IMG/VR virus record: IMGVR_UViG_3300009136_000002
Span: 11,156-75,155 of that record
DNA: 64,000 nt
Source: a virus
Direction: 5' to 3' (one strand)
Part shown: piece after piece, positions 1 to 12,065 of the stretch
Numbering within the stretch: the first letter of the stretch is position 1
How the letters are laid out: every line of letters starts with the position of its first letter
The notes under the pieces: model-generated
Database searches by the model: none
Told to the model about the DNA's origin: nothing
What the model saw: the letters and a program-made list of their open reading frames with translations, nothing else
Program-made: the position numbers and the translations under genes

Positions 1-1
1 G

Positions 2-172
2 ATTACTATTGCCGCTGGTACAGGGCTCGGCATCCTTGCCATGTTTTATGCGGGTAAAGAGCCGACCTTTGTTAATTATGTGGACTATGCACTCTTTGGA
101 TTTATGTCGGGCGCTGGTGCGGTGGGTCTGTATGAGGGTGTTTACAGAGTCGCAACTAACCCCAGGGTATGA
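2..172 (+). CDS. Holin-like membrane protein, 3' part only
   Basis: Frame 2 is open from the window edge: ITIAAGTGLGILAMFYAGK...ALFGFMSGAGAVGLYEGVYRVATNPRV*. It has two hydrophobic segments and a holin-like G..A.GLYE ending, followed by a terminator. Not in the ORF track. Confidence 0.6.
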   Translation: MTIAAGTGLGILAMFYAGKEPTFVNYVDYALFGFMSGAGAVGLYEGVYRVATNPRV

Positions 173-209
173 AAAGAGGGGCTGGCGATCCGGCCAGCCC
201 CTTTCCTTT
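172..209. terminator. Bidirectional intrinsic terminator between convergent operons
   Basis: 10-bp stem AGGGGCTGGC/GCCAGCCCCT (177-202) with A-rich and T-rich flanks. Confidence 0.75.
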
Positions 210-1086
210 AGAAGTTAGCGGCCTCTGGCAGATTCACAGGTCTTGGGATAGGACGACTTGCATTTGCTGTCTTGTTGAAATCTTTTTCATCGCTCTTGAT
301 GTGCAACGCTAGGCCAATGACATTATCTGTCTCAGGCATCGTGACTCTCTGCTGTGTGTAGACGCACAGATCAACCAGTTTGCCCTTCTCAACCCTCTGC
401 ACCTTACCTGTCTTGTAGATCAGGTAATCATTCTTGTTGCCCTTCACCAAGATCCTGCCTGTCTTAGCGTACATTTCAAGCTGTTCCCCACCGATCAATT
501 CACCCAACAATACCTGGGCGACCTCTTCGGCAGTTTCTTTGCGCTCTTTTTCTTCCGCCGCCTTCTTTAATCGTTCCTGTGCCACTCTTTCGCGTTCCGC
601 AACGGCCTCTGGAAGATCATACTGAGCCCGTTGCTGCTGGTACTGAGCTTCCCGCCGTGCATTCTCGCGCCGGACTTCCTCAAGCCCTGATTCATTGAGA
701 AGGTACGCGGCCTGTTGGTGTTGATCCCGCTCATGCTCCATCCATTGACCCCACACCATCTGTGGGAAATTGTAGGTTTCGGAATCAATCGTTGAAGTCG
801 TGTAGCTGGTGTCGTCGCTATTCATCCAACTTGACCATGTTTGTGGCATATAGATCCTTTGCTGAGGAATTGTCACCCTCAGTTGAGCCTGATACATCAT
901 GCTCTGCTGTTGGGCTTGCGTCCGTAAATCAAACTGCGCCCCCTGGACGTACTGGCCCAATCCTGAATTCGTCCAGCTTGCCGTACCTTGCATACCGTAG
1001 GCTCCACCACCAGCGTAAGAGTTTGCCGTAGTGCTGGTCTGCGTTAAGTAGGAGCCCATTGCTGACGCTGTAAGGGAAGTAGCCAT
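208..1086 (-). CDS. Hypothetical protein: Q/S/T/Y-rich N-terminus, coiled coil, small Cys-containing C-terminal domain; partner of the upstream Ubl-like gene
   Basis: Start moved to ATG 1086 (MATSLTAS) because the longer track ORF overlaps 1103-1330. C-terminus is VDLCVY...MPETDNVIGLALHIKSDEKDFNKTAN. Confidence 0.7.
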   Translation of the reverse strand: MATSLTASAMGSYLTQTSTTANSYAGGGAYGMQGTASWTNSGLGQYVQGAQFDLRTQAQQQSMMYQAQLRVTIPQQRIYMPQTWSSWMNSDDTSYTTSTIDSETYNFPQMVWGQWMEHERDQHQQAAYLLNESGLEEVRRENARREAQYQQQRAQYDLPEAVAERERVAQERLKKAAEEKERKETAEEVAQVLLGELIGGEQLEMYAKTGRILVKGNKNDYLIYKTGKVQRVEKGKLVDLCVYTQQRVTMPETDNVIGLALHIKSDEKDFNKTANASRPIPRPVNLPEAANF

Positions 1087-1102
1087 GCTTTTACCCGCCT
1101 GT

Positions 1103-1330
1103 CTAGCCCCCAGCGATAGCTGGGACGAGAATAACTTTTCCTGCTGACTTATCAAATGTTCCCATTGCCTCGGCTTTATCACCGTGTTTATCCACTCGAA
1201 ATGCCTTGTATCCTTTCTTCTTGAGCGTATTGAATTGATCTTTCGCCGCACTAACCTCCTCACTCTTGTCAGGGTTCCAGATAGTTTTGATGTCACCTTC
1301 TGGCCCAAGCACTCTAAGTTCACCCATCAC
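1103..1330 (-). CDS. Small beta-grasp/ubiquitin-like protein ending in di-glycine
   Basis: 75 aa, AGGAGG SD. Ends KVILVPAIAGG, like ThiS/MoaD/SAMP tails; the strand-helix order is compatible with a beta-grasp fold. Confidence 0.6.
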   Translation of the reverse strand: MMGELRVLGPEGDIKTIWNPDKSEEVSAAKDQFNTLKKKGYKAFRVDKHGDKAEAMGTFDKSAGKVILVPAIAGG

Positions 1331-1343
1331 TCCTCCTTTCTTA

Positions 1344-1532
1344 TTACCATCCTATTTTTTTGGAAAGCTGTGCGTCCCAGCCCCCCAGCCTCTTGAACCT
1401 AGCCTGGAAGTAGTCATACAATGGATCACGAAAACATTTACTACTGGTAGCAAATCTCCACAATCGAGCCATATCCTCGCGGCTCATTGCGTCGATCTCT
1501 GCCTTGCCTTTTGCTATCTCTTCATCCGTCAT
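1344..1532 (-). CDS. Hypothetical protein
   Basis: 62 aa; start overlaps the upstream stop (ATGA). Confidence 0.7.
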   Translation of the reverse strand: MTDEEIAKGKAEIDAMSREDMARLWRFATSSKCFRDPLYDYFQARFKRLGGWDAQLSKKIGW

Positions 1533-1810
1533 TGAAGAGTCTCCGCCTCTTTCTCTTCGTCGTTGACGAACCCTTCAACATTTTCCAAATGTTTGGACAT
1601 GGCCTTTTTAAGCATATCCAGCTTTTCCGATACTGCTCCCATGAAGAGTTTTTGTTCATACAGGTGTTCTATCATCGTATCAAGGTATTCTACTTCTCGC
1701 TCAATAAGGTCTGCTGTCATTTCAACGAGCAACTTCATACTTTCCGATGCTGCTCTCATTATCTCCATATAATCTTCGCTGTATTCATCCGTCATTCGTT
1801 TTTCTCCCAC
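1529..1810 (-). CDS. Hypothetical acidic helical protein
   Basis: 93 aa in the operon; an ATG near 1795 may be the true start. Confidence 0.65.
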   Translation of the reverse strand: MGEKRMTDEYSEDYMEIMRAASESMKLLVEMTADLIEREVEYLDTMIEHLYEQKLFMGAVSEKLDMLKKAMSKHLENVEGFVNDEEKEAETLQ

Positions 1811-1902
1811 ACAAATCTAGACGGTAAAAAAGTACCTGGAGCCGTGGTCTGCCACACCACCGCAGGGTTGCTCTTTGACAAGGAGAGGAGCCACGCAACT
1901 CC

Positions 1903-2295
1903 TCAACTCCGGCCTGATTCGGCCCCAGGCACATCGTCAATCCATTTGCCTTCTACTAGCTCTGTTCTTACTGAATCTCCGTCAAAATGCTGTGTGCTGG
2001 CCTCGATGAATCTGCACCGCCGACCATAGCTCCTGAACCTGTGCTTGCTCCCTGGCAAGATCCTGATCGAGTCACCTTCTCTTAACAGGCGATTCGTTAT
2101 GTTCCCTCTCTCGTCAACTGTGTCTAGCTCCAAGAGCCCTTCAATGACCAGGAAGGTTTCATCCTTGACCCGATGATAGTGAAACTTTCCCTTGCTCGAC
2201 CACAGACGAGCCTCACAGGTCAAGACCTTCATGCAGTACAGGTCATTGTTGGTCACGATGCGCTCGTGGCCCCAAGTTTTTGCCTCTACTCTCAT
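1903..2295 (-). CDS. Cupin-domain protein (sugar isomerase-like)
   Basis: K.WG.E start, cupin motif 1 FHYHRVKDETFLV and motif 2 GDSIRILPGSKHRF. Start placed at MRVEAK. Confidence 0.8.
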   Translation of the reverse strand: MRVEAKTWGHERIVTNNDLYCMKVLTCEARLWSSKGKFHYHRVKDETFLVIEGLLELDTVDERGNITNRLLREGDSIRILPGSKHRFRSYGRRCRFIEASTQHFDGDSVRTELVEGKWIDDVPGAESGRS

Positions 2296-2405
2296 GTGAA
2301 CACCAATTTCAGGACTCGTCCAGCTACGCAGTAGACATAGTAGAGCGCCAGGAAGTAGATAACGCCCTGGAGGAGCCAGATCCCAATGAAACCGCATTTA
2401 TCCAA
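2292..2405 (-). CDS. Small single-pass membrane protein (37 aa)
   Basis: TTG start after GGGAGA; MDKCGFIGIWLLQGVIYFLALYYVYCVAGRVLKLVFT*; stop overlaps the cupin ATG. Below the track size cutoff. Confidence 0.5.
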   Translation of the reverse strand: MDKCGFIGIWLLQGVIYFLALYYVYCVAGRVLKLVFT

Positions 2406-2471
2406 TGTGTTCTCCCGATGGTGAGGTGGGTATCAAGGTGGATTATTCCACAAGGGCAAAGCTAAGTCAAC

Positions 2472-2813
2472 TTAATAGCCAGATGATTCAATATCTGCAG
2501 CCGGATCAACTGCCTCAGATTGGTTGTCTGTCTCCGGTACGGGCTCGAATGCGTCCTGTTCCCTGGCGGAACCCAACCCCCCTCCAGCGACACTCGGCCT
2601 CTCAGGGGCGCATTGTTCATCATAGGCCTTGTGGTGCTTGTTGTATTCTTTCTCAACTGCCTGGGGATCTCGGATATACTCGGTAAGATCCTCGATCAGC
2701 TTATTTTTGGACGTATAGGCGAAGTTGGCACAGCCGACATTGACAATAAATCCCCCGCTCCCTGCGGGTCTGATCTCAATGGTTCTCATGGGTTCCATTT
2801 TGAATTCCATCAT
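2472..2813 (-). CDS. Hypothetical protein
   Basis: 113 aa, GGFIVNVGC motif, acidic tail, coupled to the upstream gene. Confidence 0.7.
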   Translation of the reverse strand: MMEFKMEPMRTIEIRPAGSGGFIVNVGCANFAYTSKNKLIEDLTEYIRDPQAVEKEYNKHHKAYDEQCAPERPSVAGGGLGSAREQDAFEPVPETDNQSEAVDPAADIESSGY

Positions 2814-3007
2814 TTCTCCTTTCTGAATTTGTCTACCTCTGGACAGGTCGCGTGATGCGGCATATAGGATCTTGCCATCACCGCCTGACCCTCGGCGTTC
2901 ATAATGATCCTGGTTTCACTCTTGGCATCGGCAGGAATGTTCTTGCCTCTGACCGTCTTGAACCAAAGGATACTGGCTCCACAACCTTTACAAGTTGACT
3001 CACGCAT
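2810..3007 (-). CDS. Small zinc-finger protein
   Basis: CKGC...PHHATCP ligand set. Confidence 0.75.
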   Translation of the reverse strand: MRESTCKGCGASILWFKTVRGKNIPADAKSETRIIMNAEGQAVMARSYMPHHATCPEVDKFRKEK

Positions 3008-3536
3008 AATACATATTCCTCAGTCTCGGTCTTGTTGGGCTCTCTTCTATATCAGCCAAAAATCTCTTTTCATCAAACTTCCTGAATCCTCGAAACGCTG
3101 GCATTCCCACGATCACAGGCCAGGGCTGTGGCAGCATCTTTAACCCTCCTCGAACCTGGGGCTCTGAGGAGTAGTCTGCCAAGTCCTCTACTTTGGCCGT
3201 AGTAGTTGCGTACAGGCCTCCAGGCTCCAGATTACCGCAACCGCGTTGTTCGGTCTGTATGTCCTGGGGATCGTCGATGTAGTAGATTTTTCCGCGTATC
3301 TCAGGCTTGAGATCCGTGGTGAGGAGTCCATAGATTTGCTCGACAAAAAAATAGGCGAACACAACTGGATCAGGTTCGCCTTTCTCTCTAGTAACGCAGT
3401 AAATCTTGTCTCCCCAATTCATCTTTTTTAGATCGCGCTTGGGAACGCGGCGGGAGACACCCATCTTCTCGGCCTCTTGCATAAAAGACCGTGGGGAATA
3501 GTACACAGCCCCTACCCAATGAAGCCAAACAATCAT
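3000..3536 (-). CDS. Hypothetical protein, possibly PUA/EVE-like N-terminus
   Basis: 178 aa; the LKKMNWGDKIYCV...VFAYFFV pattern resembles EVE/ASCH folds (weak). Confidence 0.65.
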   Translation of the reverse strand: MIVWLHWVGAVYYSPRSFMQEAEKMGVSRRVPKRDLKKMNWGDKIYCVTREKGEPDPVVFAYFFVEQIYGLLTTDLKPEIRGKIYYIDDPQDIQTEQRGCGNLEPGGLYATTTAKVEDLADYSSEPQVRGGLKMLPQPWPVIVGMPAFRGFRKFDEKRFLADIEESPTRPRLRNMYYA

Positions 3537-3537
3537 A

Positions 3538-3807
3538 TTAACCCTCCAAGATTGCTTTCAATTTTTTCTGATCGTGATCCTTCCTGCTCCAATGCTTGAC
3601 CTTTGCTTTTATCCTCAACTGTGCTGCATCCTGGTATTTATTCAAAAGGTCGATGAATTCAGTATAATCTCCCCACCCGCGCTCTTCACCTTGCGGGGGG
3701 TTACGATAGCATGGATCACAAAGAGCATATCGTGTAGTCTCGCGCTGGCAACGCCAACACGGATGGGGAGGATAGTGTGTACGTTTAACTCGCTTTCCAG
3801 CCCCCAT
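3538..3807 (-). CDS. Zinc-finger protein directly downstream of rsr
   Basis: CWRC...LCDPC, basic. Confidence 0.65.
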   Translation of the reverse strand: MGAGKRVKRTHYPPHPCWRCQRETTRYALCDPCYRNPPQGEERGWGDYTEFIDLLNKYQDAAQLRIKAKVKHWSRKDHDQKKLKAILEG

Positions 3808-3810
3808 AGC

Positions 3811-5421
3811 CTACCTGTTTGCTATGAAGTCTCCGATTATGGCTGGGGCGGCAGTATCAAAGCCAACTACGTCCATCATCCCACCATCGGTAGGATCTGC
3901 GATGGAAAACTCGTTGCTTGCCAGCCCAACGACGACTAGCTTGGCCGGAATATCCATCTTCCGGCGGTAGTCCTCAAGCGCCTGAACCGGATGAACCTTC
4001 CCAGCCCAGGTTTCATTATCGGTGTAGATCACGAAGGCATCGGCCTCGACCTTATTCTTCAAGGCCCAAAGCATAGGCAAGGCGCAATCAGTCCCGCCAA
4101 AGGGCATCCCCTGGCAATGCTTAATCACATCGTCAAGCCTCTGATGCCTGGACATATTGATCTTGCGAAGCTCATGGGAGAAAGCCATGACCGCGCATTT
4201 CTCCTCGGTCTTGAATGTGACCATAGCCATCGCGCAAGCTCCGTCACGAGGAGTAAGGTAGGGCATCCCATTGATCCCTTCCCAATCCATAGAGCTAGAA
4301 ACGTCCAGGCCGATCACAATCCGCTTACCTGTGGGCTCAACATTTTCAAATGTCTTGTAGAATCCTGCATCCAGGGCATCCACAATATCCGGCACGGCAT
4401 CCCAATCACCCTTTCCCAGGTAGCCGCGACCTTCGCCATAGATTTTAAGCGCAGCCAGGACGTTAATCGGATGAATGCGGGCCTCTCGCAACTGATTGGG
4501 ACTAACGAGCCTGTCCCGAACCCTCTCAATTACGTCCCAATTCCCTGGAATCAAGAGGCCGACCTTACCCATGTTCCCCAGGTTCCGGATCATGGCGGTC
4601 ATAGGCATCCTCTGGAGCAAGGCCTCCCATACGTCCTTCTCAGTAAGGAAGTCAGTAGGGATTGCCTCTCGCGGCAGATTGTAAAGCTGAATGAAGTTGA
4701 CGATCTCATTCTTGTGCTTTGCTTTCTTGGCGTACTCGAATCCAGCCACGACATTCAGGGGGTGAGCCCCTCTCCATTTATCAGAGTTGGGAAGCTCAAG
4801 CTCCCCGCTCACGATCCATTTATACAGCGCATTCCTGTTTGCATCGTCGGTCTTGGGGTGAGACAGTCGGAGGAGATCCCTGTGGCTCCAGCCATCACGC
4901 TGCTGGTATTTCACGGCCTGATAAGCCAACTTCTCCACATCTTTGTCCTGATACCAATGCTTGACAGCATTGCGGAGTCCTCGACCCCACCCGCGAAAGG
5001 CCTTAACGTACTTGGCGAAATGGAACAGGTGCGTCCCGATCCGCGCTACCTTTGGCAGAGCGGCCAGGGCCATCGCTCGTGTCTCTTCATCACCCAGGCC
5101 AGCGCACATTGCCAGGACGAATAGGGCCGGATCATTCTTAGGGGCTCGTCCCTTAGTAGAAACGTCCACAACAGCACCGACAACTTTAGGGCCAGCCTTC
5201 TCGATCAAACGAGCAACGGCCTTTGCGCTGTCGATGGTTAGCTTGCGCTCTTTGATGTAGTAGGTTCCGCCTTCCGTTCCCAGCATCAGAAAGCGCATAA
5301 GCCGCTCTCCATCACCTACTGGAAACACATACCCACCCGCGCTATCCCTTATCATCTGCTTGCCAGGAATCGGCTCGGTCTGTGGGGTTTCCTTTGTCTG
5401 AAAATGCTTGGTGTAGTCCAT
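3811..5421 (-). CDS. rsr: Ro60 orthologue (Rsr), TROVE plus vWA domains
   Basis: N-terminal DSAGGYVF, LMRFLMLGTEGGTYY, GWGRGLR, KYQQRDGWSHRDLLRLSHPK, MPMTAMIRNL; vWA MIDAS DVSSSM, GGTDC and YTDNETW. Confidence 0.97.
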   Translation of the reverse strand: MDYTKHFQTKETPQTEPIPGKQMIRDSAGGYVFPVGDGERLMRFLMLGTEGGTYYIKERKLTIDSAKAVARLIEKAGPKVVGAVVDVSTKGRAPKNDPALFVLAMCAGLGDEETRAMALAALPKVARIGTHLFHFAKYVKAFRGWGRGLRNAVKHWYQDKDVEKLAYQAVKYQQRDGWSHRDLLRLSHPKTDDANRNALYKWIVSGELELPNSDKWRGAHPLNVVAGFEYAKKAKHKNEIVNFIQLYNLPREAIPTDFLTEKDVWEALLQRMPMTAMIRNLGNMGKVGLLIPGNWDVIERVRDRLVSPNQLREARIHPINVLAALKIYGEGRGYLGKGDWDAVPDIVDALDAGFYKTFENVEPTGKRIVIGLDVSSSMDWEGINGMPYLTPRDGACAMAMVTFKTEEKCAVMAFSHELRKINMSRHQRLDDVIKHCQGMPFGGTDCALPMLWALKNKVEADAFVIYTDNETWAGKVHPVQALEDYRRKMDIPAKLVVVGLASNEFSIADPTDGGMMDVVGFDTAAPAIIGDFIANR

Positions 5422-5445
5422 TTCGACCCTCCTTTCAGGGTAAGC
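5419..5445 (-). promoter_or_regulatory. Ro-binding-site-like hairpin overlapping the rsr SD and start codon
   Basis: RNA GCUUACCCU-GAAAGG-AGGGUCGAA-AUG has the same CUUACCC/GGGUCGA bulged-C helix as the Y-RNA units, and contains the SD. Confidence 0.6.
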
Positions 5446-5513
5446 GGGGCAAGGAGTGAGTAAGGGATCGTTTTCAATTAGCAGTTGAATGATAACCCTA
5501 GCTCTTCGGCCCC
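5446..5513 (-). ncRNA. Mini Y-RNA-like unit E (68 nt) with Ser(GCU) anticodon stem-loop
   Basis: GGGGCCGAAGAGCUAGGGUUAUC-A-UUCAA-CUGCUAA-UUGAA-AACG-AUCCCUUACUCACUCCUUGCCCC; the ends pair into a Ro stem. Confidence 0.8.
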
Positions 5514-5524
5514 TGGTTAAAAGT

Positions 5525-5583
5525 CGGGCAAGTAGCGAACCAGCAGCTTTTCCTGATTAGGGTAACGCTGGCTCTTCGGCCCG
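5525..5583 (-). ncRNA. Mini Y-RNA-like unit D (59 nt)
   Basis: CGGGCCGAAGAGCCAGCGUUACC...UGCUGGUUCGCUACUUGCCCG; the upper stem differs from other units but keeps pairing. Confidence 0.8.
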
Positions 5584-5594
5584 TATAAAACTGA

Positions 5595-5703
5595 GTGGGC
5601 GAGTAGCGTCAAGGGATTGACCCCACCCTCGCGGGTGGCAGACCCTTTGTTGCTTAGGGGGTCTGTTAGGACTCGAACCTGATAACCCTTAACTTCGGCC
5701 CAC
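5595..5703 (-). ncRNA. YrlA-like Y RNA, unit C (109 nt)
   Basis: Ro stem GUGGGCCGAAGUUAAGGGUUAUC / AUCCCUUGACGCUACUCGCCCAC encloses a T-loop hairpin AGG-UUCGAGU-CCU, a closed stem CAGACCC/GGGUCUG and a hairpin CCACCC-GCGA-GGGUGG. Confidence 0.8.
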
Positions 5704-5715
5704 GCATTTTCGAGT

Positions 5716-5845
5716 TGGGGAGAGTGGTGGGACTCGAACCCACGGCCTCGCCATTTGCATTGGATAACCCTTAGCCATCGACCCGCAAGCGGGTAAGGAG
5801 CGGAAAGGGAATTTTCGCGCTCTAACCGACTGAGCTACACTCTCC
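5716..5845 (-). ncRNA. tRNA/Y-RNA chimera, unit B (130 nt): full cloverleaf, GCA anticodon, G-1:C73, encoded CCA, 52-nt Ro hairpin inserted between nt 28 and 29
   Basis: Acceptor GAGAGUG/CACUCUC, D arm GCUC-AGUCGGUUA-GAGC, anticodon arm CG[insert]CCA-AUGCAAA-UGGCG, variable loop AGGCC, T arm GUGGG-UUCGAGU-CCCAC. The insert (5764-5815) contains CCUUACCCGC-UU-GCGGGUCGAUGGCUAAGGGUUAU. Confidence 0.85.
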
Positions 5846-5850
5846 ATAGT

Positions 5851-5917
5851 TGGGCTAGGAATCATAGGACGGATTGGGGCAGGCGCGGCCTGCAGATAAC
5901 CATCCTACTTCGGCCCA
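5851..5917 (-). ncRNA. Mini Y-RNA-like unit A (67 nt)
   Basis: Begins immediately after the recT stop: UGGGCCGAAGUAGGAUGGUUAUC-U-GCAGGC-CGC-GCCUGC...CCGUCCUAUGAUUCCUAGCCCA. Confidence 0.8.
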
Positions 5918-7297
5918 TTACTCTTGTTCTTGTGATACTCCAAAGGTTGTGAATTCCGTGTCAGGATCGGTAGCAAAGCAATGTGAGAAATAGCCTGTGT
6001 ACCGTCCCATATACATTCGCTTAGTTAAAATGGCCCAATCGTGCCATGCTTTGAGCTGTATCCCAGCACCCTTGACAAACTTATCAATCTCCAGGGTGCG
6101 CTCGATGCTTGCCAACTGACCATCTAGTTCTTCCGGCGTTGCTTCTTCCGGCTCTTGCCCTGCGCCAAAGAGCGGCGGCTGTGCTGGTGGTTCAACTGGC
6201 GGCTCAACTGGCGGCTCAACTGGCGGCTCAACTGGCGGCTGCGGCGGTGGATCGACCATACTGAGCGGGCCTGTTGGTTCCGGCGATGCGAATGAAGGCC
6301 TCGGCCACGGTGTTCCCCAAAAGCGTTTGTGCTTGTCGTCCAATTCCTTGAGAACAGGGCTATCCGGCGGTAATAGGCCCAGCCGGACGATGTTCTCTTC
6401 TTTTGCGAGGAACGTGGTGAAGCCACTCGTTCTCAACCCGAAAAATTCTGCTATAAATTTTTCATCATCGGTTTCCGGTACAACTGGCGCTGGCGGTGGG
6501 GGCGGCACTATTGTATCAGCCAGCTTGTCCAGCCCTGTCTTTCCTGGTTCCTCGATAATCTCGCCTGTTTGTAAGTCAACGCCACTAATTACATCTAGTT
6601 GCTGATCTATCCCTGCCTCCGCTCTTTCGTCGAGACTCACGGCCAGGGACAGGGAATTGTCCACGACTGAGGACGGTAGGTACTTGACGCTGTGCCTAAT
6701 TGCTGTCTTTAAGGCCATTGCATCAAAGTCTGTTACCCAGGGGCCGGATCTTCCCGCTGGTGAGCGTTGCTGAACCGCCTTGATGTGGCTCATTGGGAGA
6801 ACCCTGAATTGAAACCCACCTTCCTTGTAAAATGCGATACAGTAAGCTGCTACCTGATCTCCGCGATCATGCTCCTCGTATGCTGGCTTGTGATGAATGT
6901 GGGGGTTAGATCCATGCTCGTAACTGAAACTATCTTTGGCATAGACTATGTGAGCCTCGATGTTCCGAAACTTGCCGGATCTCATAGCCAAGTCGATCAG
7001 ACCCATATACCCTGGGATAAACGTGACCTTCTTGGCAAAGGGAACCAAATGCGCCATATTTCTGACTCCATCCGGCTCCAGCCCCAACTGAGCGCACGTT
7101 AAGACCGCAGACAGTAAGCTCTGAGGCGTACAGTCCAGTAGCCCAGGCGTTAGCTGCACGGAGGTCATAACGATCCGGCTGAACCTGTCCACTCCGATCT
7201 GTTTTGGTAATGCAGCCGTGAGGGATTTTGAATGCTGATGGAGGAGCTGCTTTACCGATTGGATCTTGGTCTGTTGTGTCGTAAGTTGTCCGGTCAT
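5918..7297 (-). CDS. recT: RecT-family single-strand annealing protein with long Pro-rich C-terminal extension
   Basis: LLDCTPQSLLSAVLTCAQLGLEP, FIPGYMGLIDLAMRSG, SGPWVTDFDAMALKTAIR...KYLP. Start MTGQ at 7297 overlaps the yqaJ stop. Confidence 0.93.
   Translation of the reverse strand: MTGQLTTQQTKIQSVKQLLHQHSKSLTAALPKQIGVDRFSRIVMTSVQLTPGLLDCTPQSLLSAVLTCAQLGLEPDGVRNMAHLVPFAKKVTFIPGYMGLIDLAMRSGKFRNIEAHIVYAKDSFSYEHGSNPHIHHKPAYEEHDRGDQVAAYCIAFYKEGGFQFRVLPMSHIKAVQQRSPAGRSGPWVTDFDAMALKTAIRHSVKYLPSSVVDNSLSLAVSLDERAEAGIDQQLDVISGVDLQTGEIIEEPGKTGLDKLADTIVPPPPPAPVVPETDDEKFIAEFFGLRTSGFTTFLAKEENIVRLGLLPPDSPVLKELDDKHKRFWGTPWPRPSFASPEPTGPLSMVDPPPQPPVEPPVEPPVEPPVEPPAQPPLFGAGQEPEEATPEELDGQLASIERTLEIDKFVKGAGIQLKAWHDWAILTKRMYMGRYTGYFSHCFATDPDTEFTTFGVSQEQE
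6192..6239 (-). repeat. Four tandem 12-bp repeats encoding PPVE in RecT
   Basis: (TCAACTGGCGGC)x4 on the + strand. Confidence 0.9.
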
Positions 7298-8181
7298 GCC
7301 TTTCTCCTTAATGTTCTGACAGTTGCGGCATCTACCCAATATGCCTCTCTCTCATGGGCTACCCAGCTATACGTTACTCCGTTTGACAACACGCCGTAGC
7401 TTGCCAACTCTAGCTTGGACTTGATCTTGTTCTCCAGGGCTGTCTTTTCCTTTCTGAGCTGCTTTTCCTTCGCTTTGATCTCTTGTAAGTCCTCATCCCA
7501 CCAAAGAGCCTCCCCAGGTAGCGGAATGGATTCTCCGCTATCTTTGGGGTACTGGAAATGAAGGGCTTCTTTTGATGAATCTGAGTCGTCTACCGGAGGA
7601 GGATCTTGATTCTGAATTCGCTGCCAAAACTTGCCCTCTTCCTCGATAAGAATTTCCACAAAGCGGTCATTGCGTTGAACATCAACGATAAGATCGCTGT
7701 AGTCACCGAAGAATACAGCCAATGATCCCCACTCACTCCCTGTGACCGCCATTTCATGTTGGATCTGAACCTGATAATAAAGCGGTGGCTCCTCAAGCCA
7801 ATTACTCTTCATTCCAGGCCCACCAGTTTTGATCTGCAAGACCCCCTGGCCTCGATCATCAAAGGGCTCGATCAGGCGGTCTATGGTTGCCATCATAAAT
7901 TCATGCTCTGGATGCTGGTATATCGTAAAGTTGTCCGGCTTTATCGTGTCCCTACCAGTTTCCCTCTCGTAGTAGGCTGCAACTGCATCTTCGAGATCCA
8001 GACCCCATTGCATTCGCTGGTTCATTTCCTGCTCTGGCATCATCTTCAACTTGCGAAGATACAGCGATAGAGGGGATACCCAGGGGGAGATCCCCAAGAC
8101 CGCCGCAGCCTCAGACCCGCCGATCCCACCCATCCGAGCCTCAAGCCATTCGTCACGATTTTTATGAGATTTCCATTTCAT
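7294..8181 (-). CDS. YqaJ/lambda-exonuclease-like recombination nuclease
   Basis: WLEAR..GIGGSEAAAVLG.SPW, G..LE, ATIDR, LQIKT (EIK variant), YYQVQIQHEM.VTG. Confidence 0.92.
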   Translation of the reverse strand: MKWKSHKNRDEWLEARMGGIGGSEAAAVLGISPWVSPLSLYLRKLKMMPEQEMNQRMQWGLDLEDAVAAYYERETGRDTIKPDNFTIYQHPEHEFMMATIDRLIEPFDDRGQGVLQIKTGGPGMKSNWLEEPPLYYQVQIQHEMAVTGSEWGSLAVFFGDYSDLIVDVQRNDRFVEILIEEEGKFWQRIQNQDPPPVDDSDSSKEALHFQYPKDSGESIPLPGEALWWDEDLQEIKAKEKQLRKEKTALENKIKSKLELASYGVLSNGVTYSWVAHEREAYWVDAATVRTLRRKA

Positions 8182-8189
8182 GCAGGGGT

Positions 8190-8219
8190 ATCTTTACGAT
8201 TTTTTTTAGGCAAAGTCAA
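8190..8219 (-). promoter_or_regulatory. Candidate leftward promoter, near-leaderless, for the recombination/rsr operon
   Basis: TTGACT-N17-TAAAGAT, about 8 nt before the ATG; no SD. Confidence 0.45.
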
Positions 8220-8231
8220 CGATAAAATGAC

Positions 8232-8359
8232 TGTTGATAACTGCCTCAAAATAGCCCATTTTTAACGCTGGATTCTATGACAATTTGAATACTTACAATC
8301 GTTATTAACACGGTATTTACAGGTAATAAGTTATCCCCAACTGCTTAATTACATTAACA
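8232..8359. promoter_or_regulatory. Cluster of DnaA-box-like nonamers
   Basis: TGTTGATAA 8232 (reverse), TTATTAACA 8302, GTATTTACA 8313, TTATCCCCA 8331, ACATTAACA 8351 in an AT-rich intergenic region. Confidence 0.55.
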
Positions 8360-8537
8360 ATAGTCTTGATGAAACTTTTTTTCCGGCACATCAGCTCTAG
8401 CGTCGCTCATAGTGCGTGACAATTAGGGTGATTCATTTCAAGCTATTTTGTGCATATTTCTTGTTGACTCGAACCTGGGAATCGGTGTAAGCATCCCGAA
8501 GCGATCTGACAACAAACCATAGGAGGGAACCAACGAA

Positions 8538-8798
8538 ATGTCGTCGCTAAGAAATTTTCCAGTACCGAAGGCTATCAAAATCCGCGCCCTACAACACAAC
8601 CTCACACAAAAAGAGATCGCCAACATCATCACAGAGCAAACCGGAAAGTACCTCTCCCCAAGAAGGCTCAATGATATGATCCACGGACTCCGGCGAGGAG
8701 AGTGGGAGAAGTATCATCTGCTGGTTGCAGAGATACTGAATTTCAGACCATCAGAGATAAGAGATCCAGCCTTTAGTCCCAAAAGCCCTCTAACCTAG
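8538..8798 (+). CDS. Cro-like HTH regulator
   Basis: XRE-type HTH LTQKEIA...LSPRRLNDMIHG; AGGAGG SD; first gene of the rightward operon. Confidence 0.8.
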   Translation: MSSLRNFPVPKAIKIRALQHNLTQKEIANIITEQTGKYLSPRRLNDMIHGLRRGEWEKYHLLVAEILNFRPSEIRDPAFSPKSPLT

Positions 8799-8810
8799 AG
8801 AGGCCCACCG

Positions 8811-9650
8811 ATGAAATGGCTCCGTCTATGGATTGAATGGGCTCACGACCCAAAAATTATCGCTATGCCTGAGTCTATGCAGCGCAGACATATTGTTCTC
8901 CTGTGTTTGCGCCGCCAAGTAGATACCTCTACCCTCAGCGATGAAGAGATAGCATCCTATATGCGAATAGGCATGGAGGATCTTCAAGAAACCAAAGAGT
9001 TATTTACACGAAAAAACTTCATAGATAACGGCTGGAACGTACTGGCATGGGATGATCGTCAATATGATAGCGATAGCTCAACACTCCGTACTCGCAAATG
9101 GCGAAAAAGACAGAGGAAAAAAGAACGTGACAAAAAGGAAACGTCACAGGAACGTCACGGTGACGGCGTAGATACAGATACAGAAACAGATAAAGACTAT
9201 ACTTCCTCTAAAGAAGAGGAAGTATTGTCAGAACCTCCGGCTCAGACCCCCCCTTGCCCGCATGGAAAAATAAAAGAGCTTTACAACAAATACTGCAAAT
9301 CTCTTCCAGGCCTCCTTACAATGTCAAAACAACGGAAGGTTAAACTCAAAACTAGATGGGGTGAGCATCCGAATCTTGATTGGTGGCAAGCCCTCTTTGA
9401 AACAGTAGAGCAAATACCATTCTGTTGTGGTGACAATGATCGAGGATGGAAAGCCTCTTTCGATTGGCTAGTAGCAAATGATACAAATGCTCTCAAGGTA
9501 ATGGAGGGAAAGTATTTCAAGCAGGAAGTTTTGAAAAAATCTGATGGTCTTGTTGGTTGTAAAAAATGTACCCTAAGATCGGGAGCATCAACTATGGATC
9601 TCGATGAACACGGAGTTTGCTGGTCATGCAGAGAAAAAAGACGTTTTTGA
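8811..9650 (+). CDS. Phage replication initiator (O/replisome-organiser-like)
   Basis: N-terminal KWLRL...DPKI, W..RQ..SDSST.R.RKWR linker, C-terminal WKASFDWL...KVMEGKY, terminal CxxC...CxxC. Confidence 0.85.
   Translation: MKWLRLWIEWAHDPKIIAMPESMQRRHIVLLCLRRQVDTSTLSDEEIASYMRIGMEDLQETKELFTRKNFIDNGWNVLAWDDRQYDSDSSTLRTRKWRKRQRKKERDKKETSQERHGDGVDTDTETDKDYTSSKEEEVLSEPPAQTPPCPHGKIKELYNKYCKSLPGLLTMSKQRKVKLKTRWGEHPNLDWWQALFETVEQIPFCCGDNDRGWKASFDWLVANDTNALKVMEGKYFKQEVLKKSDGLVGCKKCTLRSGASTMDLDEHGVCWSCREKRRF
9124..9196. repeat. Iteron-like repeats within the initiator gene (candidate origin)
   Basis: AACGTGAC, AACGTCAC x2 and GTGACG, then ACAGAT-like hexamers, located between the two domains as in lambdoid origins. 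Confidence 0.6.
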
Positions 9651-9823
9651 GTGAGGAGGAGATCGAGCGAATCACAACAGATTTACTTGTCCAGGGGTAT
9701 GACCAAGACAGGATAATTGACCACCTGGAACGCATCAATGAACAGCGCGAGAAAAAAGAAGCCAGAGAACCGCAGCACGTTTCATCCGTTATGGATGAAG
9801 TTATGAAGAGGTTGAAACGGTGA
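9617..9823 (+). CDS. Hypothetical protein
   Basis: Coupled to neighbours; the true start may be TTG near 9647. Confidence 0.6.
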   Translation: MLVMQRKKTFLSEEEIERITTDLLVQGYDQDRIIDHLERINEQREKKEAREPQHVSSVMDEVMKRLKR

Positions 9824-10158
9824 AGCCCTATCTCTTAGCCAAAGAACGAATGAACAAGACTGAACGAGCTTACGCGGATAGCCTGTACGGACTCCAACTT
9901 GCTGGCGAGATCCTGCAGTATGAATTCGAGGGGGTGAAGTTAAGGCTGGCCCCAGGCTCATTCTACACGCCGGATTTCTATGTGGTCACGCCGGAAAGAT
10001 TTGAATTGCATGAGGTCAAAGGGTTCTGGCGCGAGGCTGCAATGGTGAGAATAAAAGTAGCGGCGGCTAAGTATCCCCACTTCAAATTCGTGGTTGTGAC
10101 AATGGATAAGCCTAGTCGCCGCTCTATAGTGAGATGGCATTTTAAGGAGATTAACTAG
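9820..10158 (+). CDS. PD-(D/E)xK endonuclease (DUF1064-like)
   Basis: NKTE..Y, YTPDF, HEVKG motifs. Confidence 0.8.
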   Translation: MKPYLLAKERMNKTERAYADSLYGLQLAGEILQYEFEGVKLRLAPGSFYTPDFYVVTPERFELHEVKGFWREAAMVRIKVAAAKYPHFKFVVVTMDKPSRRSIVRWHFKEIN

Positions 10159-11339
10159 CGGAGAAGAAACCGGATATTGACGTTGAGATCGAATTGTCCA
10201 GGTGGTTTATTCTCCAGATCGAAGATGTCTTTAATATCAGAGCTAACACCTGATTTAAATTGCTCAAACTCCCTTCTGATGCCTTGGTGGATTTTATGGA
10301 GGTTTTCAACCTGTTCACCCAATCCGTCTAGCTCCAGGGCTTCCATCCTCCGAATGAGGGCAGCGAAGTTAGCGTGGATTTCTTCTGGATCGAGAGGCAC
10401 AATGGCTGGCTCTGGATCTGCTGGCGGTGTAGGTTGAGGTAGTTTCTCGTTGAAGAATTCCCAGGCCTTTTCCGTGGATTTCTCATACCATTTCTTGTGG
10501 CTCTGAATAAACTCAATCAGATCATCGCCGGATACGTCCCTCAAGCCAGGATGGAGCTTGTAGCTCCGGCTGGATCGGCCTCCAATGAGGTCAATCATGC
10601 CGTGTGGTTCGAGTCGTTTGATAACCATTTGCAGGGTGCTAGAGATATTGGCTGGGGGTTTGCCAACTCCGGCGGCGATTTCCCTGGCGAGAAATTCCTC
10701 TGACATTGAGCGGGAGATCAGGTCGATCACGTTCTTTGATGTTCGTTTGAAGCGTAGGGCTCCGTGCTGGTATGGGCCTGATCGCTGCCCCAGGGTGATG
10801 CTCTCGCTGTTCTTGACAGGGGTTGCCTTCCAATACTTCCGAAACAATGCCTCGAATCCCATGTCCAATGCGTCATTTTTCATGCAATACTGGTAGGCCA
10901 GCCCAACTCTTTTGCGGTAGATCATCCCTGTGTCTTTGAGTTTGTTCCAGATATGAGATAATGCAGAGCTAGTATCAGCCAGGGGTTTCCCTATTTCAAC
11001 TGAGATAGCCCTTGAGTTGATAAGGGCATCCCCAGCATTGAATAGGGCATACAATACATTTTGGTTTAGTGTTGGAAAAGGTAGTTCTTTCACGCCGTAC
11101 TCCTTCCGGATCTCGAAGGGGCTCAAGCGTCTAACACGCTTTGAGACTCTTGCGGGATCATCTTCAAACCTCTCTCTCGGTCTGAATTTCTTTTTGTGTT
11201 TGGTTTTGGTTCCGATCTCTTCCTTCCTGGCTTGATCCAGGTCGTTCTGTTTTTCCTTCCCCTCCTCTCTTTCAAGGTGATCTTCCAGGGGTTCGCCGCC
11301 AACTGTAATCGCCGGAGTGCCTTCCCTCAGTTTGTCCAA
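10155..11339 (-). CDS. Protein with two winged-HTH domains and a C-terminal coiled coil
   Basis: Internal duplication SRAISVEIGKPLADTSSAL / AREIAAGVGKPPANISSTL; TTG start with AAGGAGG SD. Confidence 0.75.
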   Translation of the reverse strand: MDKLREGTPAITVGGEPLEDHLEREEGKEKQNDLDQARKEEIGTKTKHKKKFRPRERFEDDPARVSKRVRRLSPFEIRKEYGVKELPFPTLNQNVLYALFNAGDALINSRAISVEIGKPLADTSSALSHIWNKLKDTGMIYRKRVGLAYQYCMKNDALDMGFEALFRKYWKATPVKNSESITLGQRSGPYQHGALRFKRTSKNVIDLISRSMSEEFLAREIAAGVGKPPANISSTLQMVIKRLEPHGMIDLIGGRSSRSYKLHPGLRDVSGDDLIEFIQSHKKWYEKSTEKAWEFFNEKLPQPTPPADPEPAIVPLDPEEIHANFAALIRRMEALELDGLGEQVENLHKIHQGIRREFEQFKSGVSSDIKDIFDLENKPPGQFDLNVNIRFLLR

Positions 11340-11353
11340 TTCGGCCTCCTTTC

Positions 11354-11623
11354 TTAATCCCTCTCGATGCTGACTAACACGCCACCATCAAACCACAGGT
11401 AAAACGAGTAAGATGCCTGATATTTTCCGATCCGATCAAAGTTGTAGACCCATTGAGATCCGTAAACATTGTCCGGCTGTCCACAAAACATGAGGACTTG
11501 CTGTGCGGAGGCTCCTACTCCGATGATTGTATCCCTGCCACAATACATAGGCATATTATTGGCATTATACTTACCATTGCCCATAAGCGTTAGCAGGGTG
11601 GCGATTAAGAGCAGATGTTTCAT
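11354..11623 (-). CDS. Exported small protein, DUF2845-like
   Basis: Signal-like N-terminus; CG..IIGVG.S..QV...CGQP...WVYNF...F.GG.L..I pattern. Confidence 0.7.
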   Translation of the reverse strand: MKHLLLIATLLTLMGNGKYNANNMPMYCGRDTIIGVGASAQQVLMFCGQPDNVYGSQWVYNFDRIGKYQASYSFYLWFDGGVLVSIERD

Positions 11624-11717
11624 CTATCCCCTCCTTTCGTCTAGTGTGATTCTAAACTCATACACTATCTAGCGGGATAAGTACACCTATTTTTAGCTTG
11701 AAGTCGAGGTTGGTTCC

Positions 11718-12065
11718 TTGGTACAGAGGTCGAACGTGAGGACATTCGACTCAGCACATGAGGCATTGTTTTGGTGGTATGCACTAAAAGAGGTCGGCCT
11801 GGAAGTTAGGTATGTGCGTGGCGATCTCACAGGCGCAGTTGTGCAAATCAGCCGGAGAGTGCCTGTGCCTTCCGATACTTGGTGCGTGTGGATCACGTTG
11901 GATATTTTGATTTCGCGCCTTCCAGGGCGATACCAGCGCATCATAGATGAGTATTACGCGAGGGGTCGGTACATCAAGCCATTTAGACGCTGGCGGTTCT
12001 CAGGTAGGTGGAGGGCTTGTTGCAGATTGTTTTGGTCAATGCTCCCTAGTGAGTTCAAAACATGA
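11718..12065 (+). CDS. Putative transcriptional regulator (sigma region-4/late activator-like)
   Basis: ISRLPGRYQRIIDEYY resembles region-4 helices; position after the replication genes. Confidence 0.5.
   Translation: MVQRSNVRTFDSAHEALFWWYALKEVGLEVRYVRGDLTGAVVQISRRVPVPSDTWCVWITLDILISRLPGRYQRIIDEYYARGRYIKPFRRWRFSGRWRACCRLFWSMLPSEFKT

What the first reader, a model, noticed from the sequence alone, without database searches (positions are those of the whole stretch)
5419..5445. Sixth Ro-site-like hairpin hides the rsr Shine-Dalgarno: probable autogenous translational control
Seen: GCUUACCCU-GAAAGG-AGGGUCGAA-AUG reproduces the CUUACCC/GGGUCGA permuted helix of unit B. The SD (AAGGAGG) spans the loop and the 3' arm, and the AUG follows directly. 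Inference: Rsr not titrated by the Y RNAs would bind its own leader and block initiation, matching protein to RNA levels in the way ribosomal proteins do. I do not know this as described for Ro60.
Basis: partly seen in the sequence, partly recalled or inferred. Interest (0 to 1): 0.78.

Follow-up and report, generated by a model that had tools for sequence, protein, structure and literature searches.

The report
Y-RNA-mimic hairpin on phage Ro60 start
The ribosome-binding site of this phage's Ro60 (Rsr) gene lies inside a small hairpin that copies, with the two strands swapped, the stem by which Ro60 is thought to grip the phage's own Y RNAs. Similar copies sit at the same spot before Ro60 genes of many unrelated phages and bacteria, so Ro60 probably limits its own synthesis, though nobody has tested this.

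Summary
On the minus strand, 5445..5419 reads G-CUUACCCU-GAAAGG-AGGGUCGAA-AUG. The helix has 5 bp, a bulged C5425, then G·U and A·U. Its 7+7 nt match the hairpin inside the tRNA-like Y unit at 5797..5778. The SD AAGGAGG spans the loop and the 3' arm, and the rsr AUG follows one base after the arm.

The hairpin is not unusually stable (-8.4 kcal/mol, z -0.49), so "hides the SD" is only half true. A bound protein, not the fold, would have to do the occluding.

A strand-permuted bulged-C hairpin ends within 20 nt of the rsr start in 43 of 155 distinct leaders, against about 5 expected. Counted per 70%-identity Rsr cluster, it is about 14 of 109 against 3.4. It occurs in phages, Armatimonadota, Myxococcota, Chloroflexota and others, with compensatory changes.

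Within the window's own clade the support is mixed. The 98% relative keeps the hairpin but has CGAA changed to CGCA. The 76% relative has lost the local pairing.

The best reading is an autogenous translational operator that mimics Y RNA (confidence about 0.5). Binding and repression are untested. I found no paper describing this. Earlier follow-ups in this scan reached the same idea on at least 7 other genomes.

The parts
5437..5444 (-). 5' arm CUUACCCU of the leader hairpin. It corresponds to the 3' strand of a Y-RNA Ro helix.
   Evidence: Sequence. Identical to CUUACCC at 5797..5791.
5431..5436 (-). 6-nt loop GAAAGG, which holds the first part of the SD.
5422..5430 (-). 3' arm AGGGUCGAA with bulged C5425. 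It carries the GNCGAA / CGAA Ro-contact motif and ends one base before the AUG.
   Evidence: Motif definitions from PMC4201824 and PMC12135203.
5428..5434 (-). Shine-Dalgarno AAGGAGG, half in the loop and half in the 3' arm, with a 6-nt spacer to the AUG.
5419..5421 (-). rsr start codon AUG.
   Evidence: ORF list. The N-terminus MDYTKH matches relatives.
3811..5421 (-). rsr (Ro60 orthologue), 536 aa.
   Evidence: Pfam TROVE 2.7e-41 and vWA_Ro60 1.6e-67. PDB 2nvo Rsr 4e-137 and 1yvp Ro60 4e-128.
5778..5797 (-). Hairpin CUUACCC-GCUUGC-GGGUCGA in the anticodon arm of the tRNA-like Y unit. It has the same helix and the same permuted topology as the leader hairpin.
   Evidence: 15.6 bits. Equivalent hairpins occur in tRNA-like units of L170, L104, L125, L147 and L020.
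5446..5917 (-). Array of Y-RNA-like units with GGGCCGAAG 5' strands at 5916, 5701, 5582 and 5512, and CUYGCCC 3' strands. These are the presumed primary ligands of Rsr. No promoter or terminator is predicted between recT and rsr.
   Evidence: 89% conserved in L180, with compensatory changes in stems.

Best explanation
The hairpin is a cis-acting operator in the rsr mRNA that mimics the Ro-binding bulged helix of the phage's own Y RNAs. Specifically, it mimics the strand-permuted version found in the tRNA-like unit.

The Y array and rsr are probably transcribed together from upstream. Rsr protein that is not occupied by Y RNAs would bind the leader helix. That helix contains three bases of the SD and ends one base before the AUG, so bound Rsr would sterically exclude the 30S subunit. 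Rsr synthesis would then track the amount of free Y RNA.

Shown here:
- the sequence and geometry of the hairpin;
- its identity to a helix in the neighbouring Y unit;
- the recurrent, position-specific presence of equivalent hairpins at rsr ribosome-binding sites in unrelated phages and bacteria, with compensatory base changes.

Inferred:
- that Rsr binds the hairpin;
- that binding represses rather than activates;
- that Y RNAs compete with the leader for Rsr.
For: (1) Geometry. The helix has 5 bp, a bulged C, then G·U and A·U, and is identical to the unit at 5797..5778. The SD and AUG lie inside or directly against it.

(2) Motif. GUCGAA matches the bacterial Ro-contact motif GNCGAA (PMC4201824). 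It contains the CGAA motif that a phage Ro60 needs for full affinity. In that study a minimal stem-bulge-stem RNA bound with Kd 16.6 nM, and each CGAA base was worth 3- to 4-fold (PMC12135203).

(3) Recurrence at rsr starts.
- 43 of 155 distinct rsr leaders have a permuted bulged-C hairpin ending 20 nt or less from the start. Shuffled leaders give 5.2 +/- 2.2, and other windows in the same loci give 5%.
- The positional profile peaks only in the bin -20..-1.
- With one representative per 70%-identity Rsr cluster, the count is 14.1 of 109 against 3.4 +/- 1.8, with a maximum of 9 in 300 shuffles.

(4) Selection for pairing.
- Seven of 8 pairs show changes on both sides.
- In the L003 phage clade, stem positions beyond those required by my scan covary: G-C/A-U and U-A/G-C/C-G.

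(5) The hairpin stands alone in some loci. In L072 it follows a terminator-like hairpin and has no Y unit next to it. It is therefore not merely a junction of tandem units.

(6) The permuted topology is itself conserved in tRNA-like Y units of other loci. A hairpin of this topology is therefore a plausible Rsr ligand.

(7) In the 98% relative L180, the 29 nt from CUUGCCCC to GGGUCG are unchanged, while the Y unit just upstream is largely replaced.

(8) Cultured phages carry the canonical form: Streptomyces phage Beuffert and Sinorhizobium phage Phosso.
Against: No binding, toeprint or reporter data exist for any Ro60 leader.

The hairpin is weak and its energy is not better than that of shuffles (z -0.49). 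The same holds for relatives.

Support in the window's own clade is mixed. L180 has CGAA changed to CGCA, which breaks the last pair and the motif. L020 (76% identity) has no local 5' arm and keeps only GGGCCGA at the AUG.

Only about 13% of the sampled lineages have the element, and it is scattered on the Rsr tree: 12 changes for 13 positives, no different from shuffled labels. That pattern fits repeated gain, but also an easily made and easily lost by-product of Y-unit duplication.

The model also hits junctions between adjacent Y units (5534..5502 and 5605..5572), which shows how such a hairpin can arise without selection.

The sequence motif alone (GGYCGRA) is no more frequent in the leader bin than in the Y-array bins.

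The covariation counts come from sequences that were selected for pairing, so they are biased.
Confidence: 0.5

Rival explanations
1. The hairpin is a 5'-end or processing element of the polycistronic Y-array/rsr transcript. After the Y units are cut out, a hairpin near the new 5' end of the rsr mRNA would protect it from 5'-end-dependent decay or define the cleavage site. Rsr binding may or may not be involved. Under this reading, the Ro-like sequence reflects its origin by copying a neighbouring stem.
For: No promoter or terminator is predicted between recT and rsr, so processing of a long precursor is likely. M. smegmatis YrlA and YrlB are processed from a single precursor encoded upstream of rsr (PMC4201824). 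The hairpin starts 2 nt after the 3' strand of the last Y unit. In several bacterial loci it lies 4-5 nt after a Y-like unit.
Against: A stabilising hairpin needs neither a bulged C, nor the G·U/A·U lower stem, nor the conserved UUGC...GCCGAA letters. These are kept across phyla. The hairpin is always tied to the SD/AUG, at a distance of 1-20 nt, rather than to the end of the Y unit. L072 has it with no adjacent Y unit.
Confidence: 0.2
2. The hairpin is a neutral by-product of tandem duplication of Y units. It would be the 3' strand of one unit plus the 5' strand of a truncated next unit, or a copied piece of the tRNA-like unit, left next to rsr with no function of its own.
For: The model hits true inter-unit junctions in the same array (18.0 and 16.0 bits). 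The leader copy matches unit B through GGGUCGA..UGG. Units are visibly reshuffled between the window and L180. The trait is scattered on the tree and is lost in the 76% relative.
Against: The sharp positional peak at -20..-1 is not seen at other distances within the arrays. Tight dedicated loops of 3-4 nt contrast with 13-14-nt inter-unit spacers. Within-clade compensatory changes occur. The hairpin is perfectly conserved in L180 next to a replaced unit.
Confidence: 0.15
3. Rsr binds the leader, but for a purpose other than repression. Examples are capture of nascent Rsr in cis so that it loads onto the Y RNAs of the same transcript, or activation by opening the SD-containing stem.
For: The same structural evidence for an Rsr site applies. 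Y units and rsr share one transcript.
Against: In most relatives the SD lies outside and just 3' of the helix. Opening the stem would not free it, whereas a 60-kDa ring bound 0-5 nt upstream would obstruct the 30S subunit. No precedent is known to me (own knowledge).
Confidence: 0.1
4. The resemblance is chance. This would be an ordinary small SD-region hairpin whose letters happen to match the Ro site.
For: The folding energy is unremarkable. Seven-mers such as CUUACCC occur 12 times in the window.
Against: The 7+7 nt are identical to a unit 350 nt upstream, inside a region holding 6 of the window's 14 GGGYCGA sites. The element is enriched at rsr starts elsewhere.
Confidence: 0.05

Closest known systems
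Ro60/Rsr-binding bulged helix of Y RNAs. Examples: vertebrate GGUCCGA/UUGACC-type stem, bacterial and phage YrlA/YrlB/Yrl with GNCGAA or CGAA, and nematode sbRNAs.
   Same: It has the same core: G-N-C-G-A-A on one strand, a complementary strand, a single bulged C, then G·U and A·U. It is encoded next to rsr. The letters are identical to a unit of the same array.
   Different: The strand order is swapped: the 3'-strand letters come first and are closed by a 6-nt loop on what is the open end of a Y RNA. It has no effector or tRNA-like domain. It is part of an mRNA and overlaps the SD and AUG. No Rfam Y-RNA family matches it.
Autogenous translational operators that mimic the protein's main RNA ligand. 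Examples: E. coli thrS operator (tRNA-Thr anticodon-arm mimic), ribosomal-protein operators (S8, L1, S15, L20), and archaeal L7Ae binding a K-turn in its own leader. These are cited from my own knowledge.
   Same: A small copy of the ligand's recognition helix is placed on or beside the ribosome-binding site of the protein's own gene. The predicted logic is that surplus protein shuts off its own synthesis and the true ligand competes.
   Different: No binding or repression has been shown for any Ro60. The element is present in only a minority of rsr genes. The ligand genes lie on the same transcript just upstream.
Phage operator hairpins that contain the RBS or start codon. Examples: MS2/Qbeta coat protein on the replicase start hairpin, and T4 RegA and gp32 operators. 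These are cited from my own knowledge.
   Same: A weak hairpin holds the SD or AUG, and a bound protein rather than the fold itself would block initiation. The context is a phage.
   Different: The repressor here would be a Ro60 ring protein, and the operator copies a non-coding RNA partner.
tRNA-like Y units with a Ro hairpin in the anticodon arm, in this window (5844..5719) and in L170, L104, L125, L147 and L020.
   Same: They have the same permuted hairpin topology and, in the window, the same 7+7 letters.
   Different: Those hairpins are embedded in a cloverleaf and are not next to a start codon.

Membership tests
Ro60-binding site of Y RNAs | GNCGAA(N0-1)G or CGAA motif on one strand | tested here: met
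   GUCGAA lies at 5427..5422; motif as defined in PMC4201824 and PMC12135203. The trailing G comes after 2 nt rather than 0-1 and is the G of the AUG. In the near relative L180 the motif reads CGCA.
Ro60-binding site of Y RNAs | Complementary strand forming a helix with a single bulged C | tested here: met
   The pairing is 5 bp, bulged C5425, then G·U and A·U by direct pairing. The upper 5 bp appear in the MFE and centroid folds.
Ro60-binding site of Y RNAs | Helix formed by the 5' and 3' ends of a small non-coding RNA, with the variable or effector domain on the far side | tested here: not met
   The strand order is permuted and closed by a 6-nt loop. The site lies in the rsr mRNA leader. 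There is no Rfam Y_RNA or YrlA hit.
Ro60-binding site of Y RNAs | Bound by Ro60/Rsr | not testable with these tools
   This needs EMSA, filter binding or CLIP.
Autogenous translational operator by ligand mimicry | Operator overlaps or abuts the SD and start codon of the regulator's own gene | tested here: met
   The SD at 5434..5428 lies in the loop and 3' arm, and the AUG is 1 nt after the arm. In relatives the distance from motif to AUG is 1-20 nt.
Autogenous translational operator by ligand mimicry | Operator resembles the protein's primary RNA ligand in the same genome | tested here: met
   It is identical to the helix of the unit at 5797..5778 and differs by one pair (U-A for C-G) from the other four units.
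Autogenous translational operator by ligand mimicry | Conserved at the same place in relatives, with covariation | tested here: inconclusive
   Enrichment is 4- to 8-fold with compensatory changes. However, it is present in only about 13% of lineages, is scattered on the tree, and is altered in the window's nearest relatives.
Autogenous translational operator by ligand mimicry | The protein represses translation of its own mRNA through the operator | not testable with these tools
   This needs reporter fusions and toeprinting.

The most novel reading that the evidence does not exclude
Ro60/Rsr proteins of many phages and bacteria set their own level by binding a strand-swapped miniature of the Y-RNA docking helix on their own ribosome-binding site. 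Y RNAs would then act as the titrating ligand, giving an r-protein-style feedback that couples Ro60 synthesis to Y-RNA supply. This has evolved repeatedly by copying a stem from the adjacent Y genes.
Probability: 0.45. Interest if true: 0.75.

Novelty: new variant of a known kind. Interest (0 to 1): 0.62.

Why it matters
It is not known how cells or phages keep Ro60 and its Y RNAs in balance. The known dependence runs one way only: Y RNAs are unstable without Ro60 (own knowledge).

A Y-RNA mimic on the rsr ribosome-binding site would supply the missing feedback. It would add Ro60 to the classic list of RNA-binding proteins that autoregulate by ligand mimicry. It would also give a 25-30-nt minimal RNA for studying Ro60 recognition.

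The idea can be tested directly with a reporter fusion and a gel shift. Cultured phages that carry the canonical form are available: Streptomyces phage Beuffert and Sinorhizobium phage Phosso.

The repeated, scattered appearance of the element is itself of interest. It is an example of regulatory sites being made by copying a piece of a neighbouring RNA gene.

Tried and rejected
- **Thermodynamics.** The MFE z-scores of the window hairpin and of five relatives are not significant. They neither support nor refute a protein-stabilised helix.
- **Rfam.** No family other than tRNA matches in window 1-12000. In related loci the only hits were tRNA, weak YrlA and the nematode sbRNA model. No described rsr-leader family was found.
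- **Nucleotide search.** A search of the leader plus array against cultured phages found no match.
- **Sequence-only motif profile.** GGYCGRA is as frequent in the Y-array bins as in the leader bin. The signal lies in the local permuted pairing plus position, not in the motif alone.
- **Long-range helix scan.** A generic scan for Y-type long-range helices was too noisy to test whether each leader helix matches its own genome's Y stems. The match was clear only for the window, L180, L020, L008, L128 and L160.
- **Tree mapping.** It shows no clustering of the trait, so a single ancient origin is not supported.
- **MAFFT alignment of the L003-clade leaders.** It misplaced two rows, so the within-clade covariation was read by eye rather than counted.
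- **Other model hits in the window.** The hits at 6178..6144 (inside recT) and 1935..1905 (end of an ORF) were inspected and judged to be chance.
- **Literature.** Searches for Ro60/Rsr autoregulation found nothing relevant. Two papers could not be read.

Full report
**What is there.** The finding lies on the minus strand. Positions 5445..5419 read G-CUUACCCU-GAAAGG-AGGGUCGAA-AUG. The AUG at 5421..5419 opens a 536-aa ORF (5421..3811). This ORF carries the TROVE and Ro60-vWA domains and matches solved Rsr/Ro60 structures at E 1e-128 to 1e-137.

The window is a virus record. The genes upstream on the same strand are a YqaJ-type exonuclease and RecT. The 496 nt between recT and rsr hold no ORF of 60 aa or more.

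That gap holds four GGGCCGAAG motifs, each with a CUYGCCC partner downstream. It also holds a tRNA-like element (Rfam tRNA 46.9 bits, 5844..5719) whose anticodon arm is replaced by a 65-nt insert containing CUUACCC-GCUUGC-GGGUCGA. No promoter or terminator is predicted between recT and rsr, so the array and rsr are probably one transcript.

**The hairpin.** The pairing is U5437-A5430, C5438-G5429, C5439-G5428, C5440-G5427 and A5441-U5426, then bulged C5425, then U5442-G5424 and U5443-A5423. The 7+7 letters are identical to those of the hairpin in the tRNA-like unit. They differ from the other four units only by U-A in place of C-G next to the bulge.

The SD AAGGAGG (5434..5428) has two G in the loop and A-G-G in the stem. 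The spacer to the AUG is 6 nt, and the 3' arm ends one base before the AUG.

GUCGAA fits the bacterial Ro-contact motif GNCGAA of Chen et al. 2014 (PMC4201824). It also contains the CGAA motif that contributes 3- to 4-fold per base to binding of a Thermus-phage Ro60 to a minimal stem-bulge-stem RNA (Kd 16.6 nM; PMC12135203).

Six of the 14 GGGYCGA sites in the 64-kb window lie on this strand between 5423 and 5916.

The fold itself is weak: -8.4 kcal/mol, z -0.49. The SD is only partly "hidden" unless something binds the helix.

**Relatives.** I collected rsr loci from IMG/VR, GTDB genomes and JGI metagenomes. Starts were called by tblastn plus SD, and leaders were read from those.

Many distant leaders carry a tight hairpin YUUGCYC-loop-GRGCCGAA, followed within 0-5 nt by the SD:
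- Armatimonadota: CUUGCCCC-NNN-GGGGCCGAAAGGAG.
- A large phage clade: CUUGCUCGUG..CACGAGCCGAA.
- Other viral contigs: CUUGUCUCGC-UUG-GCGAGACCGACAGGAGG and CUUGUCCGA-GGGA-UCGGACCGAAAAGGAAG.
- Abditibacteriaceae: UUGCUCU-UGAG-AGAGCCGAAAGAGG.

In Myxococcota the motif is fused with the SD (..GGGCCGGAGG). A third form puts the SD inside the hairpin, as in the window (GGAGGGUCGAA in L072; GGAGGGUCGGAG in L050).

**Statistics.** I used a fixed scan. It required at least 4 bp, a bulged C, two lower pairs, a loop of 12 nt or less, and a 3' end within 20 nt of the start.
- It is positive in 43 of 155 distinct leaders.
- First-order shuffles of the same leaders give 5.2 +/- 2.2.
- Other 63-nt windows of the same loci give 5%.
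- Along -700..+400, the only peak is the bin -20..-1.
- With one representative per 70%-identity Rsr cluster, the count is 14.1 of 109 against 3.4 +/- 1.8, with a maximum of 9 in 300 shuffles.

An alignment of 40 such hairpins shows changes on both sides at 7 of 8 pairs. These rows were chosen for pairing, so that count is biased. Less biased evidence comes from the L003 phage clade. There the stem positions beyond the four my scan required still covary: G-C/A-U/G-U at one position and U-A/G-C/C-G/U-G at the next.

**Limits.** About 13% of the sampled lineages have the element. On an Rsr tree it is scattered: 13 positives need 12 changes, at least 9 of them forced by well-supported branches, no different from shuffled labels. 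The element is therefore gained or lost often.

A covariance model built from the alignment scores the window's leader hairpin best (23.5 bits; the window's own hairpin was one of the model's training rows). It also hits the junctions between neighbouring Y units (5534..5502 and 5605..5572) and the hairpin of the tRNA-like unit. This shows how such a hairpin can arise as a by-product of tandem duplication.

In the window's own clade, the 98% relative L180 keeps the hairpin exactly but reads CGCA for CGAA. This happens while the Y unit just upstream is largely replaced. The 76% relative L020 keeps GGGCCGA at the AUG but has lost the local 5' arm. Only a UUGCCC 22 nt upstream could pair, and that is also the 3' strand of its last Y unit.

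The sequence motif alone is no more common in the leader bin than in the Y-array bins.

**Why I still favour an operator.**
- The position is tied to the SD/AUG, not to the end of the array.
- The loops are tight (3-4 nt), whereas inter-unit spacers are 13-14 nt.
- The letters UUGC...GCCGAA and the bulged C are kept across phyla, which a mere stabilising hairpin would not need.
- In L072 the hairpin follows a terminator-like stem and has no Y unit beside it.
- The same permuted topology is conserved inside tRNA-like Y units of several loci, so a hairpin of this topology is a plausible Rsr ligand.

A 60-kDa ring bound 0-20 nt from the AUG would lie inside the region that a 30S subunit must occupy (own knowledge). 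Repression is thus the simplest outcome, and competition by Y RNAs follows from the shared site. All of this is inference.

**Known or new.** Searches of the paper library found no description of Ro60/Rsr autoregulation or of an rsr leader element. The two key papers do not mention one. Two other papers, Green 1998 and the 2018 review, could not be read.

Rfam has no matching family. The kind of mechanism, an autogenous operator that mimics the ligand, is classical. Its use by Ro60 would be new.

The notes of this scan show that the same idea was raised and followed up on at least 7 other genomes, with the same verdict: observation confirmed, function untested. I treated these as leads only. 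The statistics above are my own.

**Verdict.** The feature is real. The most likely function is a Y-RNA-mimic translational operator for Rsr (about 0.5). The rivals are a processing or stability role (0.2), a duplication by-product (0.15), a non-repressive Rsr site (0.1) and chance (0.05).

Noticed in passing
window 5719-5844 (-): This is a tRNA-like element (Rfam tRNA 46.9 bits, full model 1-71) with a 65-nt insert in the anticodon arm that carries a permuted Ro hairpin. ARAGORN calls no tRNA there. Equivalent 106-133-nt tRNA-like units with a UUGCCC-loop-GGGCCGA hairpin lie upstream of rsr in L170, L104, L125, L147 and L020. The domain order is a circular permutation of the YrlA layout.
   Followed up: partly
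L129:1301-1370, L104:1383-1464, L107:1384-1463, L020:1410-1477 and others: The Rfam model for nematode stem-bulge RNAs (RF01656 ceN72-3_ceN74-2, the worm Y-RNA homologues) hits Y-like units just upstream of bacterial and phage rsr genes. One hit is above its gathering score (44.9 against 38 bits). The bacterial YrlA model scores only about 29 bits there.
   Followed up: no
L145, L147, L129, L132 (Myxococcota loci): In these genomes rsr sits inside dense tRNA gene arrays, with up to about 20 tRNA hits within 4.6 kb on the same strand. The arrays are interspersed with Y-like and tRNA-like units.
   Followed up: no
L205-L259 (a metagenomic rsr clade), about -55 to -25 before the start: A different conserved leader hairpin occurs here, GYGYCG-(A/G)GAGUUGG-CGRCRC, with covarying stem (GUGCCG/CGGCAC, GUGUCG/CGGCAC, GCGUCG/CGACGC) and a constant loop. 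It lies after the 3' strand CAACUUGUCCGCAG of a Y unit. It contains GNCG(A/G)G and may be another kind of Rsr-related leader element.
   Followed up: no
window 5446-5513 (-) compared with L180:1154-1211: Between the window and its 98% relative, the last Y unit is largely replaced: its payload resembles that of the preceding unit. The stems and the rsr leader stay the same. This suggests module shuffling within the array.
   Followed up: partly
L260 (Gordonia phage BearBQ), last 15 nt before the Ro gene: The sequence GGGAGCCGAC-AUG fuses the SD with a GAGCCGA Ro-type motif directly at the start codon. It resembles the window's layout but has no obvious 5' arm.
   Followed up: no
window 5382-5390 (-), conserved in relatives: The conserved N-terminal TPQTE codons of Rsr spell CAGACCGAG in many relatives, a GACCGA-like string about 40 nt into the ORF (the window itself reads a variant there). 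It is probably a coincidence of codons.
   Followed up: no
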